A stretch of 60,413 nt of DNA, taken from contig NW_015176023.1 in assembly GCF_001447785.1 (NCBI RefSeq), positions 324,365 to 384,777 of the forward strand, in the 5' to 3' direction. Below, piece by piece: positions 15,001-21,000 of the stretch; position 1 is the stretch's first letter; each line of letters begins with the position of its first letter. The DNA comes from Gekko japonicus. Taxonomy: Eukaryota. Made by a program: the position numbers.

Positions 15001-18000
15001 GAAAGGGGCTTAGGAAGACACGAGATGATGCCGTTGGCTCTGATTCCAGGTGTGCCTTTTCACCTTGCGGCTCTCCTTGTGACTTAGATGGATTGTGTCA
15101 CTGTTAAGATTCAGACCTGAATGACGAGAGAGCTGCGTGAGGAAGGGGGGGCCATTGACTTGAAAAGAACTGCAGGTGAACTAAGTCACGTCGGCAGGCT
15201 TGGAGAGCCCCACCGGTATCCCCTCTGGGTGGTGGCCAAAGCTTTCAATGAAGTGGTCCCGTCAGCAGCAAGTCAGGGGCGGCTGTGCCTGCCTTCTGAA
15301 GGCCCCCCCCCAAACTTGGTCCATCATTTCTGGAAGCAACGAGAACCAACAAGGCGATGGGGGACTTTCCTGGAGGGAGAGGCGGGCTCGGCTGCCGGAC
15401 TGGATCTCTGAGAAGCGAAGGAGCGGAAGGGAGCACCTCTTGATCCCTGTTTTTCCTCTCCCAGGAGAACCACGGTCGCCCAGACGTCCTGGATCAGATT
15501 TATCGGAACAACCCCATCCTCCGCTACACCGCCGGCCCCATCTACGCGCCCCTGCTGCCGTTCCCTTACGGAGCTGGCGAAGGGGCAGGTGAATGGCTGG
15601 GCCTGGTGTCCACGCTCCGCTTATGGGGCTGGAGGGGGGGGGCACGGGGCCGGGCCGAGGGGCAGCCTGGAACCTTGGCCAATGGCTCCTTTCCTCCCTC
15701 CCCCCCCCCGGGTTCTGCAGAGGCCAGCAGCCGCGGTTACGCAGCCCTTCGCGATGAAGCAGTGAAGCTGTTCCATTCGCTGCAGCAGCTGGAGGGGGTG
15801 CGGGAGCCGGCCCTCCTCGCACAGGGGGTGCTGCAGACCTGCCTTGACCTCCCTCCCTTGGTGGACGAGATCTACTGCCAGCTGGTGAAGCAGACCACCC
15901 AGCCGCCTGCGCCGGGGACCCCGCCTGACCTGCGCTACTGGCAGCTGCTGGCTTGCATGAGCGGCACCTTCCAGCCCTCCCCGCCCGTCCAGGGCTACCT
16001 GCAGCGGCACCTCCAGCGGTGAGGAGGGGGAGGGAGGGAAGGCCGAGACCCGAGGGAGGAGGATCCCTGCTGCCAGGAGGGAGAGGGGCACTCCCGTTCT
16101 TCTTTGGAGGCGCCAGAGGCAGGGTGACCAGTGTTACCTCTAAGCTGAGTTAGTGTGAGCCAGCTCAGTTTTTTAATCTCCGGCTCACACATTTTTTGTC
16201 TTAGCTCAGGAAGGAGGGCTCCTGAGCAAACTAATTTATGCCTGAGCCAAATGGCTCGCTCACACCTTTAATGCCAGTAGCTCATAAAGTAGAATTTTTG
16301 CTCACAGGACTCCGCAGCTTAGAGGGAACGTTGCCGGGTGACCCGGCCTGCTCTTGGGGGTTTCCTAAGGAGGAGTCTTCCTTGGGGTGGGGCGCTGGGC
16401 CGGGCTCTTGCGAGTGGGATCGCGGCAGCCGCCGTTGTGCGCCTGAAGCCAGTCTTCCTCATCCCCGGCAGGACAGAGAGCCGGTTCCCAGGCTCAGAGA
16501 TGGCCCAATACGGACGTTTTATCAAGGAGGCTCTGCGCAAGACTCAAGGGCGGGAGTGTGTGCCATCGCTGGAGGAGATCGAAGGGCTGATGGGACACCA
16601 AGAAGTGGCACGCCCCATGCCGCGCCGTGGCACGGCCCCCTGCCATGTGACCATCGCTTCCCACACCACAGCGCAGGAGGTGAGCAGATGTCAGGGGGTT
16701 TTTATCCATGGGCCCCGGGAGCCTGATGGGTTGCAGAAAGGGGTGGGGAGGGAGGGGAAGTCTTCCTCAGGAGAGCTGAGAACCCCCCCCCCCTGTGCAT
16801 CACAGGCCTCCCTCACGGGTGCCACTGAGTTGTGGGTCAGGACAGCAGAGGTGGGGCTTCCCTCTTCCATTCCTACTCCGTAGTGCCAGCAGAGCCCCCT
16901 GCCGTGGAAGCCGCACCCCCACCCCTGCCCATCCCTGAGCACGTTTTGACCCTGTCTGTGTCCCCCCTTTGCAGCGCTGACGGCCCTCCTGCTGGGCGTG
17001 GCTGGGCCCCCTCCTGTCACTCGCTCTGTCTCCTCCTCCTCCTCCCGGGAGCTGACGTCACACCTGGGCCCGGTATGCAGCCCCAACCTGTTTGCCCTGT
17101 ATGACTACCCCCCCCCTGCAGAGGATGCCCTGGCGGCAGACGCCCTCAGCAGGTTTGAAACGTCAGTGGGGGCCTTTGCTGCAACTGAAAGGGGAGGAGG
17201 GGCCCAGGAGCCGGGACGGACACACCCCGGCAAGTCCCATGTCTCTGTGGCCGCCGCAGAGGCGGTCCTGCAAACGTGCAAATGGTGGTGGCAGTTTCAG
17301 AGCTCGAGGGGGCCGTGAGCGGGTGACTGCAGCGGTGGGGGCTGTCAGTACGAAGGTCTGTGCCCCCCTCCCCTTGCGGCTAGCGGAAGCCGAATGCTGT
17401 GTGCAAGGAAGCACACGAGGGGCACGCCTGTTTTTGAAAATGTGAGACGTGGGTGACGAAAGCCCGTGTGTGACTTTGGCTGCATACTAGGGATGGAGGC
17501 GTGTCGGCCGGCACCAGGAGCAGAACTGCTGCTTTCTGTGACTCCGTGTTTGTCCCGACAGGGAGAGGGCGGCCTCCGCAACTGGGACCACGGCTCCCGC
17601 TGAAGGAGCGACAGGGCCGGCTTCTGACTCCTCCCGGGAGAAAGGCTTCCCCAGAAAAGATCACGCGAAGCGGGGAACAGAACACTTTACCCTTGACGGG
17701 ACAGGCCCTGTCAGTGCACCTTGATGAAGCAATTGCATAGATGTGAAAGTAAAGAACATAGGAAAGGAAGGCAGAGATGCTGGAATCTGGCGGAAGCGGT
17801 GCAGTTATGTGCCCCTGGAGAACCGCTTCCAGAGAGACCCATAGGACAGAGGCGTGGAGACCACAGACTGTAGACACCCACCCCCCACCCCCCGTGGAGT
17901 ATCCCTTCAGTCATCTGAATCCCCCCAGGCTGAGAGGCTCTAGCCTCTGGCAGGTATCGTGGAATACTTGCTTGGCTTTTGGTGAAAACTTAGAAGTCCA

Positions 18001-21000
18001 GGTGTTTCGTTTTGCAACGCAGAGGGGAAAGCACGAAGAACTTCACTGGGCCTGGCGGAGTGGAGACTAATGCTACATGAGACTCTCCCCAATTTTTGAG
18101 CCGCTTCCCTATTTAGGAGAATCCCACTTCAGACAATAGCAGGTCCCTATTCTGGCCTCCGCCGCCACCGTGAACCAGAAGGGTCTTGATCTTGTGCTCA
18201 GCTTAAGCTGGGGAGTCAAAAGGAGGCCGAACACACCCATCGACTCCAGGGAAGGGGGAAAGGACGCCAGGAGGAGTGGGCTGGACTGGGGGTGGGCATC
18301 CCTGCACTGGTGGGCTGCCTGTCTGCCCTAGCTCGGCTGGGGAAGCCCCCTTGCAGACTCTGCGTCAAGCATTATGGGTGCCTGGACGGAGACCGCACCT
18401 TCCACAACAGCCACGCGGGCGCACTGCTGTTTGAGCAGGTAAGGGAAGGGCCCTTCCGAATGCCCTCTCCCCTCCGTTTTCTGTGCCCCCTTCTCTGAGG
18501 AACAGCCCTGTGACCGCAGGCAGGCTTGCAGAGCCGGAACGGCAGCTTCTCTGCCCGCACGCCTTCCTGTTGCTGGGCCGGCTGCACTCCTGCCCCAAGG
18601 CTTCCCCTGCCCCCCCAGCAAAAGCAACATCTGCAGGGGTGCAAGTGGGAGGGGTCATTGCAGTGGGAAGGCGGGGGGGGGGGCTGGCTGGAGCCCAGGG
18701 CTGCCTATGTCGACCCGGTGGGGGAGGGGTCAGGCTTGGTGCCACTCTTTGATGTAGCCGCTTGTCGGGTGAGTTCTTGCACCTGCATTTTCACACTTCA
18801 GGCATAACTTTCAGCTGTGAGGGGGGGGGCATTCAGGAAAGTGACTGTGAATGGAAAACTGCACAAGAGAGGGTGTTGGGGGAGTTTTGTGTGACGGTGG
18901 GGGGGGGGAAGGAATGTCCACCCACCACTTGGGAAAAGGGACCTGCAGGTCTCGCTGCTGGTGTTCTGCAGCCTGATCTTGGTGTGGCAAGATCCGCATC
19001 CCCTGTCTGTCTCCCTCCCCAGGGCCAGGCCGGCCGGCCGGCCACCGTGGCTCACCCTCAGCCCCAAGACAGTCTTCCTCTGCTGCCCACTGGATGCTTT
19101 CAGCTACGGCTGCGATGGAGCCCTGCTGCACCTGAGTCTGGGCGATCAGGAGCTCCTCCTGCACACACACCCCCTCCCCACAGGTAGGAGGACAGGAGGT
19201 CAGCGGGGTCTCGTGGGAATCCAGCGTGTGGTCCAGGCTCTCAGGGGGTAGAGCGGGACACCCTATTTTGGTATGCAAGAAAAACCAACACAAACAATCT
19301 CAGTCTGATTTTAATGACGTTATGGAAATTGGGCACATTTTAACAACTACATGAGATCATTACTCCCACCCTAGTTTCTACTGACGGGGTTTCCTTTTGT
19401 AGAGACGGGAACCTGCCTGCCAGGCAGGCAGGAGAGGAACAGCAGCAGGGAGGCCTCCCAAGTACCCACAGCCGGAAACGGACCTCTCATGGCAGGGGCA
19501 GGGACCTCTTGGGGGAATAAAGGCCAAAAAAAAAAGCAGCCCGCGGTTTGTGTAGAAGCATGCCCCTCTTCAAGTTTCGGGCACAGTGAAAGTGAAAAAT
19601 TGGGTGCCTTTGGCCCAACAAGTATTCATGGTTCTACCTACAAAGAGGGCTGGACAGGCTTTTTCAATGTGGAAGGAGTTTTGCTATCCACATGTCCAGG
19701 TTTGCCACAGAGCGTCTGAGGGTGCCATAAAAGGGTGCACATTTGCCTCTGGAAAAGTGACCTTGGGCCGTTGGTAGCCGTTCTTCACCCTTAGATGATC
19801 TGGGCCCCCAGAGCCAGCAGGAACTTGCGTGAATCTGATTACCCAAGACCACTGGCATCCCCCATGTAGGTGGAGATTGCGTCTGCGAGCCCCAGGACGT
19901 TTGACAGTCCCGCTGACCACTTCTACAGTCTCACCCTGCAGCATCCACACTGGCCTCCACCTTAACAGCTAAACTTCCCCCCCCTCCCTCTGTGAAAGCT
20001 GAAATTTTTAAAGACCCAGATCTTCACNNNNNNNNNNNNNNNNNNNNNNNNNNNNNNNNNNNTGAGGATACAGGAGACTCAGTGCTCATTTGCTGGCTGC
20101 ATGTGATGGGGGCTTTCTGCTTCCTTTCCAGGCCAAGGAATTTCTGCAGCTCTTGCAGGCATGCACGGCCAACAAAAAGCTCTAGCAGAAGCAATCCAGC
20201 ATCCCCGTGGCCACGCTCCAAGAGGGACTGCATTTACGTCATCAAACTGCCCTTCCTGGACTTGCTGCCTGTTGGTTCCCCAGGGACAGTGCCTTAGCTG
20301 GACAGACACTCACTGTGTGAGCACCAGGAGGATGCTGTGCACCCAAGGAGCTGTGCCTCGTCTCATTTGCAAGGACAGGGAGAGGTTCTCCAACCTCATT
20401 TGAAAACACAGTTGCACACACTCCCCCCCCCCCCATCCCACCCCGTACCACCACGTGCTGGTTTCCTACGGCATTTAGTGGATAGTGTTTCCTAGCACAG
20501 CTGCGGGCAGCTGTACCCCTACACTGGCACCTTATTCATGCACCTAGAGCCTGCCCCCAACCTGCCAGAAGCAGTGGAGGGGGAACAGTCCCGGGAAGAA
20601 CCTGCCCAGTGTGGTGGCGTTCCTCTTGTAAAAATTTTTTTTTAAAAAAAAATAAACATGGATGGAAAATGATCGTGTCTGGGTCAGTGGCTCGATTTTG
20701 GTCAGGGCAAGAAAGAGCAACACCATCTTGTCTGGTTGGGCACCTTTCACTACACCACTGTGGATCTTGTTAGAATGTTCGGTTTGCTTACTTCATCCCT
20801 CCTCCCACTTTGCACAGCCATCGTGACGCACCTTTGGAGATCCGGTGCTTGCTTGACGCTTAGCAGCAGAGCGGGGGGGGGGGGACTGAGAGTCTCATAA
20901 GAACATAAGAGACGCCAATTTTGGATCAGGCCAAAGGCCCACCCAGTCCAACACTCTGTGTCACACAGTGGCCAGAAAGACCAGGTGCCATCAGGAGGTC

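What the first reader, a model, noticed from the sequence alone, without database searches (positions are those of the whole stretch)
17040..19251. PLEKHH3 keeps PH and MyTH4 but its FERM exons are eroded
Seen: exons 2-8 (379 codons) are clean, while each downstream exon is damaged. Exon 9 has lost its AG and first codons, leaving only a weak GAG acceptor at 17050-17051. Exon 10 (18332-18438, 107 nt) is one base out of phase and gives TGA at 18432. Exon 11 lacks its acceptor (ctgcc|cgcac), is strongly shortened, and its two homologous ends lie in different frames. Exon 12 has internal deletions and off-phase ends. Known: MyTH4 and FERM normally act as a tandem unit. Inference: either a lineage-specific PH-MyTH4-only protein under selection or a gene partway through pseudogenisation. 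Several lesions are not in homopolymers, so sequencing error alone is unlikely.
Basis: partly seen in the sequence, partly recalled or inferred. Interest (0 to 1): 0.7.

Follow-up and report, generated by a model that had tools for sequence, protein, structure and literature searches.

The report
Gecko PLEKHH3 with decayed FERM domain
A gecko copy of the gene PLEKHH3 keeps its first two protein modules intact while its third module has decayed, and that module also looks incomplete in every lizard and snake gene model compared, which makes it a modest evolutionary curiosity.

Summary
The window is gecko DNA, not human. It carries the PLEKHH3 orthologue on the + strand, next to a gamma-tubulin exon. 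Exons 2-8 are exactly 379 clean codons, and 7 of 7 have AG..GT borders. Their PH and MyTH4 parts are 76-97% identical to 13 sauropsid orthologues.

Every exon after exon 8 is damaged.
- Exon 9 has only a GAG acceptor behind a (CTC)n tract.
- Exon 10 changes frame after its first five codons and meets a stop just before its donor.
- The FERM middle lobe (F2) survives only as collinear scraps in two frames.
- The F3 exon is 161 nt long and uses three frames.

The erosion is not private to this species. Among 23 squamate PLEKHH3 models, all keep PH and MyTH4 and none has all three FERM lobes. All 4 outgroups have all three. A Heteronotia model ends in the same shifted frame of exon 10.

Best reading: a conserved PH-MyTH4 protein with a decaying FERM tail. 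It is neither a dead gene nor mainly an assembly artefact. No transcript data or orthologous DNA were available, so the real 3' end and dN/dS remain untested. Interest is moderate.

The parts
7203..7267 (+). PLEKHH3 exon 2 (65 nt)
   Evidence: tblastn to Euleptes, Eublepharis and Anolis N-terminal regions. AG and GT flanks.
13188..13276 (+). PLEKHH3 exon 3 (89 nt)
   Evidence: tblastn, 26 of 29 residues identical to Gekko kuhli. AG and GT flanks.
14175..14369 (+). PLEKHH3 exon 4, first half of the PH domain
   Evidence: 53-62 of 64 residues identical to 13 orthologues. Weak exon-level Pfam PH hit, E 0.24. AG and GT flanks.
14536..14693 (+). PLEKHH3 exon 5, second half of the PH domain
   Evidence: 45-51 of 52 residues identical to 13 orthologues. 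AG and GT flanks.
15465..15588 (+). PLEKHH3 exon 6 (PH-MyTH4 linker)
   Evidence: tblastn. 26-35 of 41 residues identical. AG and GT flanks.
15721..16018 (+). PLEKHH3 exon 7, first two thirds of MyTH4
   Evidence: Pfam MyTH4 PF00784, E 8.1e-20, profile positions 1-65 of 105. 74-92 of 98 residues identical.
16472..16679 (+). PLEKHH3 exon 8: end of MyTH4 plus start of FERM lobe F1. This is the last clean exon.
   Evidence: tblastn E 3.5e-21 to tuatara. The MyTH4 part is 23-36 of 41 identical and the F1 start 10-17 of 28. It ends on a complete codon before GT.
17030..17045 (.). (CTC)5.3 microsatellite where the exon 9 acceptor and first codons should be
   Evidence: Tandem Repeats Finder. The orthologues' first exon 9 residues have no counterpart here.
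17052..17152 (+). Exon 9 remnant (F1 lobe), frame 3. Its only acceptor is a GAG, and it has one 5-codon gap against orthologues.
   Evidence: tblastn E 4.75e-07 to tuatara. AG inventory. 16-22 of 36 residues identical in the 8 of 13 orthologue models that match the block. No Pfam family at E up to 1.
18332..18438 (+). Exon 10 (F1 lobe), broken. There is one internal frame change after the first five codons. The inherited frame then meets one stop just before the donor.
   Evidence: Three-frame translation against orthologues. ORF 18276..18434. The last 21 residues of the Heteronotia model match the shifted frame, 13 of 21, E 3e-4.
18526..18762 (+). Collinear scraps of FERM lobe F2 lying in what other gecko models treat as an intron. 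Blocks are in frames 1, 3 and 1, the first ~24 residues of the lobe are absent, and a large internal stretch is missing.
   Evidence: tblastn of scincoid and tuatara F2 segments. Shuffle controls reached the real score in 0, 3 and 6 of 200 runs.
19023..19183 (+). F3 exon, broken. It is 161 nt, not a multiple of three. Start, body and end lie in three different frames. It has two internal gaps and a (GGCC)5 repeat at 19023-19043.
   Evidence: tblastn: 32 of 42 body residues identical to G. kuhli, 25 of 42 to Euleptes, 17 of 42 to tuatara. Repeat. AG and GT positions.
20132..20185 (+). Last coding exon (frame 2) with its TAG. Its stop position is shared with three other gecko models. Similarity to the longer scincoid C-terminus continues past the stop.
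   Evidence: tblastn: 12 of 17 identical to three gecko models. Hemicordylus aligns at 48.6% over 35 columns across the stop. Sequence shown.
24335..24478 (-). Neighbour: one exon of a gamma-tubulin gene, tail to tail with PLEKHH3
   Evidence: phmmer against PDB: Tubulin gamma-1 chain, E 2.1e-23, residues 236-283. Pfam Tubulin_C, weak.

Best explanation
This is the gecko orthologue of PLEKHH3, caught at a late stage of losing one domain. The 5' two thirds of the gene (exons 2-8: PH domain, linker, MyTH4 domain) are intact. I infer they still encode a functional membrane- and partner-binding module kept by purifying selection. The 3' third once encoded a three-lobed FERM domain packed against MyTH4. 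It no longer can.
- Lobe F2 survives only as non-coding scraps.
- Lobe F1 is cut short by a frame change and stop in exon 10.
- The F3 exon cannot be read through in its old frame.

The inferred product ends in or soon after exon 10. It would be PH-MyTH4 followed by an unstructured, fast-evolving tail.

Comparison with other species suggests an order of events (inferred).
1. Constraint on the FERM domain relaxed at or near the base of squamates.
2. The gecko stem lost F2 and gained an early stop in the last exon.
3. Gekkonid geckos, including this species, then accumulated frame breaks in the F1 and F3 exons.

Shown here: the anatomy, the conservation contrast and the cross-species pattern of gene models. 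Inferred: expression, the true 3' end and the function of the truncated protein.
For: Identity and orthology.
- The best hits of the MyTH4 exon are gecko PLEKHH3 models at 85-92% identity. 194 proteins passed E <= 1e-5 among 2344 candidates, and 120 were listed.
- A gamma-tubulin exon lies next door.

Intact 5' part.
- 7 of 7 exons have AG..GT borders, and they total 379 codons.
- Pfam finds MyTH4 at E 8.1e-20.
- PH exons are 53-62 of 64 and 45-51 of 52 identical, and the MyTH4 exon 74-92 of 98, across 13 orthologues including tuatara and turtle.

Broken 3' part.
- ORFs holding exons 9, 10 and F3 matched no Pfam family at E up to 1.

Support from other species.
- The six gecko models are 371-586 aa. 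Their precomputed Pfam lists show MyTH4, with or without PH, and nothing else.
- In a segment-by-segment blastp of 23 squamate models from 21 species, PH and MyTH4 were found in 23 of 23. F2 was found in 3 of 23 (all scincoid) and F3 in 3 of 23 (all gecko). All three lobes together were found in 0 of 23, against 4 of 4 outgroups.
- A database search with a scincoid F2 segment returned, among its 120 listed hits, no squamate other than the 3 scincoids.
- The Heteronotia model ends in the shifted frame of exon 10 (13 of 21 identical). The G. kuhli model reads through intron 8 and reads exon 9 out of frame. The Paroedura X2 model skips exons 9-10.

Structure.
- AlphaFold2 of the Heteronotia model gives pLDDT 75-91 for PH and 80-94 for MyTH4 in most 10-residue blocks, with one MyTH4 block at 67. 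The tail from residue 321 is below 50 except for residues 356-361.
- Its best structural match is the myosin X MyTH4-FERM cassette (3pzd, E 6.5e-12, 49% identity over 198 columns).
Against: - No transcript or read data were available, so the exons actually used and the 3' end are unknown.
- The stop in exon 10 lies upstream of two further splice junctions. If those exons are spliced, nonsense-mediated decay could remove the message. This rests on established knowledge, not on a test here.
- Exon 1 (MPFPGG...) was not found in the 7.2 kb upstream of exon 2.
- The FERM remnants are still fairly similar to G. kuhli: F3 body 32 of 42 and last exon 12 of 17. This exceeds the 12 of 36 I counted by eye in the intron 8 read-through of that model (alignment). 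Decay may therefore be recent, or some constraint may remain.
- Three small lesions lie in or beside repeats or homopolymer runs.
- All cross-species evidence comes from computed gene models, often one isoform per species. No codon-level test could be run.
- I searched exon by exon and did not join the exons. The PH domain of this species' own product was therefore tested only in halves (Pfam E 0.24).
Confidence: 0.65

Rival explanations
1. The small lesions are assembly or sequencing errors. The true gene encodes an in-frame protein lacking only F2 (PH-MyTH4-F1-F3), like the Euleptes and Sphaerodactylus models.
For: - The exon 10 frame change lies beside G4 and C5 runs.
- The F3 exon starts with (GGCC)5 and ends in a C/CA-rich stretch.
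- The missing exon 9 acceptor lies in (CTC)n.
- The window has three N runs, so the assembly is imperfect.
- The Euleptes and Sphaerodactylus models are open from exon 8 to the last exon.
- AlphaFold2 of Euleptes gives block pLDDT of 54-83 for the F1 region. The F3 remnant blocks are 50-61 for residues 501-540 and 80-83 for 541-580, with a C-terminal helix.
Against: - At least four separate small lesions would all have to be errors.
- Three other gekkonid models from independent assemblies also fail to read exons 9-10 in the old frame. One ends in the very frame predicted here.
- The F2 loss itself is far too large to be an error.
- The AlphaFold result is driven by an alignment that holds full-length orthologues.
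Confidence: 0.15
2. The whole gene is a unitary pseudogene in this species. Exons 2-8 look clean only because inactivation is recent.
For: - Exon 1 was not found upstream.
- A premature stop followed by further splice junctions would normally invite mRNA decay (established knowledge).
- The G. kuhli and Heteronotia models also lack exon 1.
Against: - There are 379 codons without a stop and 7 of 7 intact splice borders.
- PH and MyTH4 identity to distant orthologues is as high as among species with full-length genes.
- All 23 squamate models keep PH and MyTH4 despite incomplete FERM domains. Truncation has therefore coexisted with conservation for a long time.
- Exon 1 may simply lie beyond the window.
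Confidence: 0.1
3. Shifted splice sites rescue the frame. An alternative CAG acceptor inside exon 10 (AG at 18355-56) is phase-compatible with the exon 9 donor. It would keep the exon 10 body in its old frame, giving a protein with a nearly whole F1 lobe and then a novel tail.
For: - Positions of AG and GT dinucleotides plus my own phase arithmetic.
- The GAG acceptor of exon 9 is the first AG after a 75-nt AG-free, pyrimidine-rich stretch, so exon 8 to exon 9 can be joined in frame.
- The exon 9 and 10 blocks remain 58% and 49% identical to tuatara.
Against: - The upstream acceptor at 18330-31 has the better pyrimidine tract and comes first. Its preference is my inference from the usual scanning behaviour of 3' splice site choice.
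- No splice-site scoring tool or transcript was available.
- The Heteronotia model uses the shifted frame.
- Even with rescue, the F3 exon cannot be read in its old frame.
Confidence: 0.1

Closest known systems
Full-length PLEKHH3 of tuatara, turtles, crocodilians and birds (about 780-810 aa; e.g. P0018 Sphenodon, P0022 Pelodiscus)
   Same: Orthologous gene. It has the same exon blocks for PH, linker and MyTH4, with 76-88% identity in those blocks.
   Different: Those proteins carry all three FERM lobes (4 of 4 outgroups). The window cannot encode F2, and it reads F1 and F3 out of frame.
Short PLEKHH3 gene models of other geckos (Heteronotia 371 aa, Gekko kuhli 539, Paroedura X2 466, Eublepharis X2 389, Euleptes 586, Sphaerodactylus 549)
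   Same: They are the closest relatives (85-92% in the MyTH4 exon). None has F2. Three of them (G. kuhli, Euleptes, Sphaerodactylus) share the early stop in the last exon. The Heteronotia model ends in the same shifted frame of exon 10.
   Different: The two sphaerodactylid models stay in frame through F1, F3 and the last exon. This window does not.
About 580-aa PLEKHH3 models of lacertoid, iguanian and anguid lizards, and shorter snake models
   Same: PH and MyTH4 are conserved, and F2 and F3 are absent.
   Different: They keep a Pfam-recognisable F1 (RA-type families in the precomputed lists). They end in a shared 66-77 residue tail with no consistent match in this window.
Myosin X MyTH4-FERM cassette (PDB 3pzd, 3au4, 3au5)
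   Same: It is the best structural match of the modelled gecko MyTH4 region (E 6.5e-12, 49% identity over about 198 columns). MyTH4 and FERM normally form one supramodule with a three-lobed FERM (passages of PMC5493754).
   Different: Here the FERM partner is gone. The cargo-binding groove that FERM lobes provide in myosins (passages of PMC5493754) cannot exist.
ARHGAP39 / Vilse / Porf-2
   Same: It is a precedent for a MyTH4 domain working without a FERM domain. Its domains are WW, MyTH4 and RhoGAP (passages of PMC6220574).
   Different: It is a different gene family with different partner domains. No sequence comparison with it was made here.

Membership tests
PLEKHH3 orthologue group | Best sequence matches are PLEKHH3 proteins of related species | tested here: met
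   The top six hits of the MyTH4 exon are gecko PLEKHH3 models, followed by other squamates, tuatara, turtles and birds.
PLEKHH3 orthologue group | Conserved neighbourhood (gamma-tubulin gene adjacent) | tested here: inconclusive
   One gamma-tubulin exon lies at 24335-24478 on the minus strand. That PLEKHH3 neighbours a gamma-tubulin gene in other vertebrates is recalled, not checked by a call.
PLEKHH3 orthologue group | PH domain | tested here: inconclusive
   The domain is split over two exons, and the exons were not joined. Exon-level Pfam PH scored E 0.24, below the cut-off. The two exons are 86-97% identical to orthologues. The Heteronotia model folds as a PH domain and matches solved PH domains.
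PLEKHH3 orthologue group | MyTH4 domain | tested here: met
   Pfam PF00784, E 8.1e-20, 71.6 bits against a cut-off of 27, for exon 7 alone. The rest of the domain, in exon 8, is 23-36 of 41 identical in the 12 of 13 orthologue models that match it.
PLEKHH3 orthologue group | Complete three-lobed FERM domain after MyTH4 | tested here: not met
   There is no Pfam family in the ORFs holding exons 9, 10 and F3. F2 survives only as scraps in two frames. Exon 10 and the F3 exon change frame.
MyTH4-FERM supramodule proteins (myosin VII, X, XV tails; PLEKHH1/2) | MyTH4 helical bundle packed against FERM lobe F1, with F2 and F3 forming a cargo groove | tested here: not met
   The MyTH4 fold is supported through the orthologue model. 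The FERM half is absent or unreadable in the window.
Unitary pseudogene (whole gene inactive) | Disabling changes spread over the coding sequence and lost splice sites | tested here: not met
   Exons 2-8 have none. All damage lies after exon 8.
Unitary pseudogene (whole gene inactive) | No expression, or neutral evolution (dN/dS about 1) of the remaining exons | not testable with these tools
   No vertebrate transcript, read or genomic collection was available. Only protein models of other species could be compared.

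The most novel reading that the evidence does not exclude
PLEKHH3 lost the need for an intact FERM domain at or near the base of Squamata. Since then each major lineage has kept a different leftover. Scincoids keep F1+F2, geckos F1+F3, lacertoids, iguanians and anguids F1 plus a shared new tail, and snakes almost nothing. PH-MyTH4 stayed under strong constraint throughout. That would be a natural, roughly 200-million-year uncoupling of the MyTH4-FERM supramodule, and it would show that this MyTH4 domain works without its FERM partner.
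Probability: 0.45. Interest if true: 0.55.

Novelty: new variant of a known kind. Interest (0 to 1): 0.4.

Why it matters
MyTH4 and FERM are treated as one structural and functional unit in myosins and in the PLEKHH proteins (passages of PMC5493754). A vertebrate order in which the MyTH4 half is conserved while the FERM half decays piecemeal would separate the two functions without any experiment. It would also give a handle on PLEKHH3. In my searches its name appeared only in papers whose listed titles are expression, methylation or association studies. None of the 76 papers naming it also mentions lizards or geckos.

There is a practical point as well. The short squamate PLEKHH3 entries in public databases are probably real biology and not poor annotation. 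The C-terminal parts of several gecko models are translations of decaying sequence.

The finding changes no general principle, because domain loss by exon decay is a known process.

Tried and rejected
1. A database search with the tuatara F3 segment returned only the query itself (1 of 69 candidates). It is uninformative because the word index is limiting. F3 presence was judged instead by local blastp on proteins already fetched.

2. I asked whether the shared C-terminal tail of lacertoid, iguanian and anguid models is a shifted-frame reading of the F2 or F3 remnants seen here. tblastn of eight tails against 18439-20027 gave only scattered hits (E 0.01-0.9) at inconsistent places. Rejected.

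3. I searched for exon 1 in 1-7400 with five N-terminal regions. Nothing appeared on the + strand below E 0.3 apart from exon 2 itself.

4. I considered using the intron 8 read-through in the G. kuhli model as a neutral yardstick. It is too short and too gapped to be more than a hint (counted by eye).

5. dN/dS for exons 2-8 against the later exons was not possible. No collection with vertebrate genomic or transcript DNA was open. The genome collection holds bacteria and archaea only, so I did not use it.

6. Rfam (0 matches at gathering scores) and ARAGORN (0 genes) found nothing in the window.

7. Pfam on ten long ORFs outside the gene gave only a reverse transcriptase and a weak tubulin hit.

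8. Two scripts failed on a BLAST output column of my own choosing. This was diagnosed and the analysis rerun.

Tests that need the spliced product of this species were left out.

Full report
What the window is. The window is 60,413 bases with three N runs, at 10253-10692, 20028-20062 and 56067-56131. I left these alone. It is not human. The MyTH4-encoding ORF at 15606-16022 (Pfam PF00784, E 8.1e-20) finds gecko PLEKHH3 models first: Gekko kuhli 92%, Heteronotia 88%, and Euleptes, Eublepharis, Sphaerodactylus and Paroedura 85-86%. Other squamates, tuatara, turtles and birds follow (194 proteins at E <= 1e-5 among 2344 candidates, best 120 listed). No hit is identical, so the species is a gekkonid-like gecko that is not among those entries. 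A gamma-tubulin exon lies on the minus strand at 24335-24478 (PDB Tubulin gamma-1, E 2.1e-23). From memory, this fits the neighbourhood of PLEKHH3 in other vertebrates. The gene has introns, so it is the resident orthologue and not a processed copy.

Exons 2-8. tblastn of five orthologues and inspection of the borders give seven exons: 7203-7267, 13188-13276, 14175-14369, 14536-14693, 15465-15588, 15721-16018 and 16472-16679. All 7 of 7 are flanked by AG and GT. Their phases agree and no stop occurs. Block by block, identity to 13 orthologues is 53-62 of 64 and 45-51 of 52 for the two PH exons. It is 74-92 of 98 for the main MyTH4 exon. For the MyTH4 part of exon 8 it is 23-36 of 41 in the 12 models that match it; the Eublepharis X2 isoform does not match because it reads exon 8 in another frame. 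At the start of the FERM domain inside exon 8 identity drops to 10-17 of 28. Exon 1 (MPFPGG...) was not found in the 7.2 kb upstream. It may lie outside the window.

Exon 9. The homologous block (RELTSHLG... to ...DALAADALS) is in frame 3 and ends at a GT at 17153. Orthologues have about four more residues at the start of this exon. Here a (CTC)5.3 tract occupies that place (17030-17045). Between 16960 and 17060 there are only two AG dinucleotides, at 16973 and 17050. The first would lead straight into a stop. It is the first AG after a long AG-free, pyrimidine-rich stretch, and it is in phase with exon 8, so an in-frame exon 8-9 junction is possible. G at -3 is the least favoured base there (established knowledge). 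There is also a 5-codon gap against orthologues inside the exon, beside a C9 run.

Exon 10. The exon 9 donor leaves two bases, and the acceptor at 18330-31 is followed by one completing base. The first codons, SSAGE in frame 3, match Sphaerodactylus SSAGEE and Euleptes SSVGEE, so the junction is in phase. The rest of the exon (KPPCRLCVKHYGCLDGD...LLFEQ) is homologous in frame 1. There is therefore one frame change inside the exon, next to G4 and C5 runs. The inherited frame runs into the stop that ends ORF 18276..18434, a few bases before the donor.

The last 21 residues of the NCBI Heteronotia model (P0001) match this shifted frame at 13 of 21, E 3e-4. Another gekkonid assembly is therefore annotated as ending in the same way. 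The G. kuhli model reaches the exon 10 body only by reading through intron 8 and reading exon 9 in another frame. The Paroedura X2 model skips exons 9 and 10. One alternative CAG acceptor (AG at 18355-56) would be phase-compatible with the exon 9 donor (plus my arithmetic). I list that as a rival.

The F2 lobe. Between exon 10 and the next exon used by other gecko models (18439-19022) there are collinear scraps of the FERM middle lobe.
- 18526-18615 in frame 1, against tuatara, E 0.001.
- 18676-18732 in frame 1, against Lerista, E 6.6e-4.
- A longer frame 1 hit, 18541-18762, against Hemicordylus, E 2e-5.
- A weaker block in frame 3, 18576-18698, E 0.016.

All four come, and the E-values refer to this 584-nt target. 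Shuffled queries reached the real best score in 0 of 200 (Hemicordylus), 3 of 200 (Lerista) and 6 of 200 (Sphenodon) runs. This is weak but above chance, and the blocks are in the right order. The first ~24 residues of the lobe and a large internal stretch have no counterpart. Frame 1 carries two stops just upstream.

The Tiliqua X2 isoform omits a 43-residue block that begins right after exon 10. The original exon probably began there, and that part is missing here. I could not verify ancestral exon borders without orthologous DNA.

The F3 exon and the last exon. The exon at 19023-19183 is 161 nt. Its first codons (GQ, as in Euleptes GQD and G. kuhli GRD) are in frame 3. Its body (PPWLTLSPKTVFLCC...LLHLSLGDQELLLHT) is in frame 1. 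Its last codons before the GT match the orthologues' ...TPQ only in frame 2. There are two internal gaps, of 5 and 7 residues, against Euleptes, and a (GGCC)5 repeat at the start.

The last exon (20132-20185, AKEFLQLLQACTANKKL then stop) is intact in frame 2. It cannot be reached in that frame from the F3 exon as it stands. Its stop is at the same place as in G. kuhli, Euleptes and Sphaerodactylus. Similarity to the longer Hemicordylus C-terminus continues past the stop (48.6% over 35 columns). An early stop in the last exon is therefore old within geckos. The N run at 20028-20062 lies in the last intron, about 70 nt before this exon's acceptor. What it hides is unknown.

Beyond this species.
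- None of the six gecko models has FERM_M or the RA-type or PTB-type families that mark F1 and F3 in full-length orthologues (precomputed Pfam lists).
- In a blastp of six tuatara segments against 23 squamate models (21 species) and 4 outgroups, PH and MyTH4 were found in 23 of 23. PH coverage was 55% in one snake isoform.
- F1 was found at 98% coverage or more in 13 models, partly in 5, and not at all in 5.
- F2 was found in 3 of 23, all scincoid. F3 was found in 3 of 23, all gecko.
- All three lobes together were found in 0 of 23. Tuatara, turtle, quail and alligator had all three (4 of 4).
- A whole-database search with the Hemicordylus F2 segment returned 130 proteins at E <= 0.001 among 737 candidates, with 120 listed. 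Among named squamates, only the three scincoids appeared.
- Lacertoid, iguanian and anguid models end after exon 10 with a shared 66-77 residue tail. The Python model joins exon 8 to that tail, and the other snake models stop soon after exon 8.
- Between the two sphaerodactylid geckos, whose models stay in frame, identity is 110 of 118 in the PH exons and 162 of 181 in the linker plus MyTH4. It is only 45 of 66 in exons 9-10 (with 11 residues opposite gaps), 36 of 62 in F3 and 12 of 19 in the last exon.

These are computed gene models, often one isoform per species. Hidden assembly gaps could remove exons. The pattern is therefore strong but not proof.

Structure.
- AlphaFold2 of the Heteronotia model, the closest analogue of the product predicted here, was run with a 34-sequence alignment. 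Its 10-residue-block pLDDT is 75-91 for PH and 80-94 for MyTH4 in most blocks, with one MyTH4 block at 67. The tail from residue 321 is below 50 except for residues 356-361 (mean 71.8).
- Foldseek places it next to the myosin X MyTH4-FERM cassette (3pzd, 3au5, 3au4; E 6.5e-12 to 2e-11; 48-49% identity over about 198 columns) and next to solved PH domains.
- The Euleptes model gives block pLDDT of 81-91 for MyTH4 with one dip to 57, and 54-83 for the F1 region. The F3 remnant blocks are 50-61 for residues 501-540 and 80-83 for 541-580, with the strands and C-terminal helix expected of that lobe (mean 59.9). The in-frame F1+F3 form of sphaerodactylids may therefore still fold. Full-length orthologues in the alignment favour such a prediction.

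How it most likely works. The product is inferred to be a PH-MyTH4 protein with a short or unstructured C-terminal tail. In myosins, MyTH4 and FERM form a rigid supramodule and the FERM lobes form the cargo groove (passages of PMC5493754). The MyTH4 domain of myosin X binds microtubules, and ARHGAP39 carries a MyTH4 domain without FERM (passages of PMC6220574). A PLEKHH3 without FERM would keep whatever PH and MyTH4 do and lose FERM-mediated partner binding. The function of PLEKHH3 itself appears to be uncharacterised. Of 76 papers that name it, the 25 listed are, by their titles, expression, methylation or association studies (listing only). 0 papers name it together with 'lizard' and 0 with 'gecko'. 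The 10 listed of the 12 papers that also mention MyTH4 do so once or twice each, apparently in giving the gene's full name (listing only). Supplements were closed and were not needed.

What stays open.
- Which exons are used in mature mRNA.
- Whether the message escapes decay.
- Whether the three repeat-associated lesions are exact.
- When each lesion arose.
- Whether exons 2-8 show dN/dS below 1 at the codon level.

I searched the splice model exon by exon and left out the joined step. The spliced protein of this species was therefore never scanned or folded as a whole. No vertebrate genomic, read or transcript collection was available. The genome collection (bacteria and archaea) was not used.

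Verdict. The novelty is a new domain-architecture variant of a known gene. The most interesting aspect is the squamate-wide pattern, not this one locus.

Noticed in passing
window 2170-3510 (+): A 446-codon ORF with a reverse-transcriptase domain (Pfam RVT_1, E 4e-30). It is a LINE-type retroelement fragment upstream of PLEKHH3 exon 2. I did not examine it further and did not catalogue its state.
   Followed up: partly
window 11986-12237 (-): An 83-codon ORF in the intron between exons 2 and 3. By eye and from memory it resembles the C-terminal end of LINE ORF2 proteins. No tool was run on it.
   Followed up: no
window 1-7200: PLEKHH3 exon 1 (the MPFPGG... start seen in most orthologues) was not found upstream of exon 2 with five query N-termini. 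The G. kuhli and Heteronotia models also lack it. It may lie beyond the window or be lost.
   Followed up: partly
window 24335-24478 (-): An exon matching gamma-tubulin residues 236-283 (E 2.1e-23). The rest of that gene was not mapped.
   Followed up: partly
window 16238-16726 (+), the other frame across exon 8: The C-terminal 35 residues of the Eublepharis isoform X2 model match this region in a frame different from the PLEKHH3 frame (23 of 35, E 3e-10). That isoform apparently enters exon 8 through a different acceptor and ends early.
   Followed up: partly
window 20183-20233 (+): Past the TAG of the last exon, the same frame still resembles the longer C-terminus of Hemicordylus. The position of this stop is shared with three other gecko models, so it looks like an old gecko-wide truncation.
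   Followed up: partly
related proteins P0010, P0011, P0013-P0017, P0020: Lacertoid, iguanian and anguid PLEKHH3 models share a 66-77 residue non-FERM tail that ends ...VVGLWxCPL, or closely similar variants. The Python model joins it directly to exon 8. Its origin is unexplained, and it has no consistent match in this window.
   Followed up: partly
related proteins P0007, P0008, P0009: Scincoid models keep F1 and F2 but jump from the end of F2 to the last exon, lacking F3. This is the opposite of the gecko pattern.
   Followed up: partly
whole window: AATAAA occurs 74 times against 22 expected (0 of 100 shuffles reach 74). Many lie in overlapping runs that look like A-rich simple repeats. On the + strand near the gene they occur at 19516 (in the last intron), 20651 and 21748.
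   Followed up: no
window 10253-10692, 20028-20062, 56067-56131: Three N runs. The first is in the intron between exons 2 and 3. The second is in the last intron, about 70 nt upstream of the last exon. They were left as they are.
   Followed up: no
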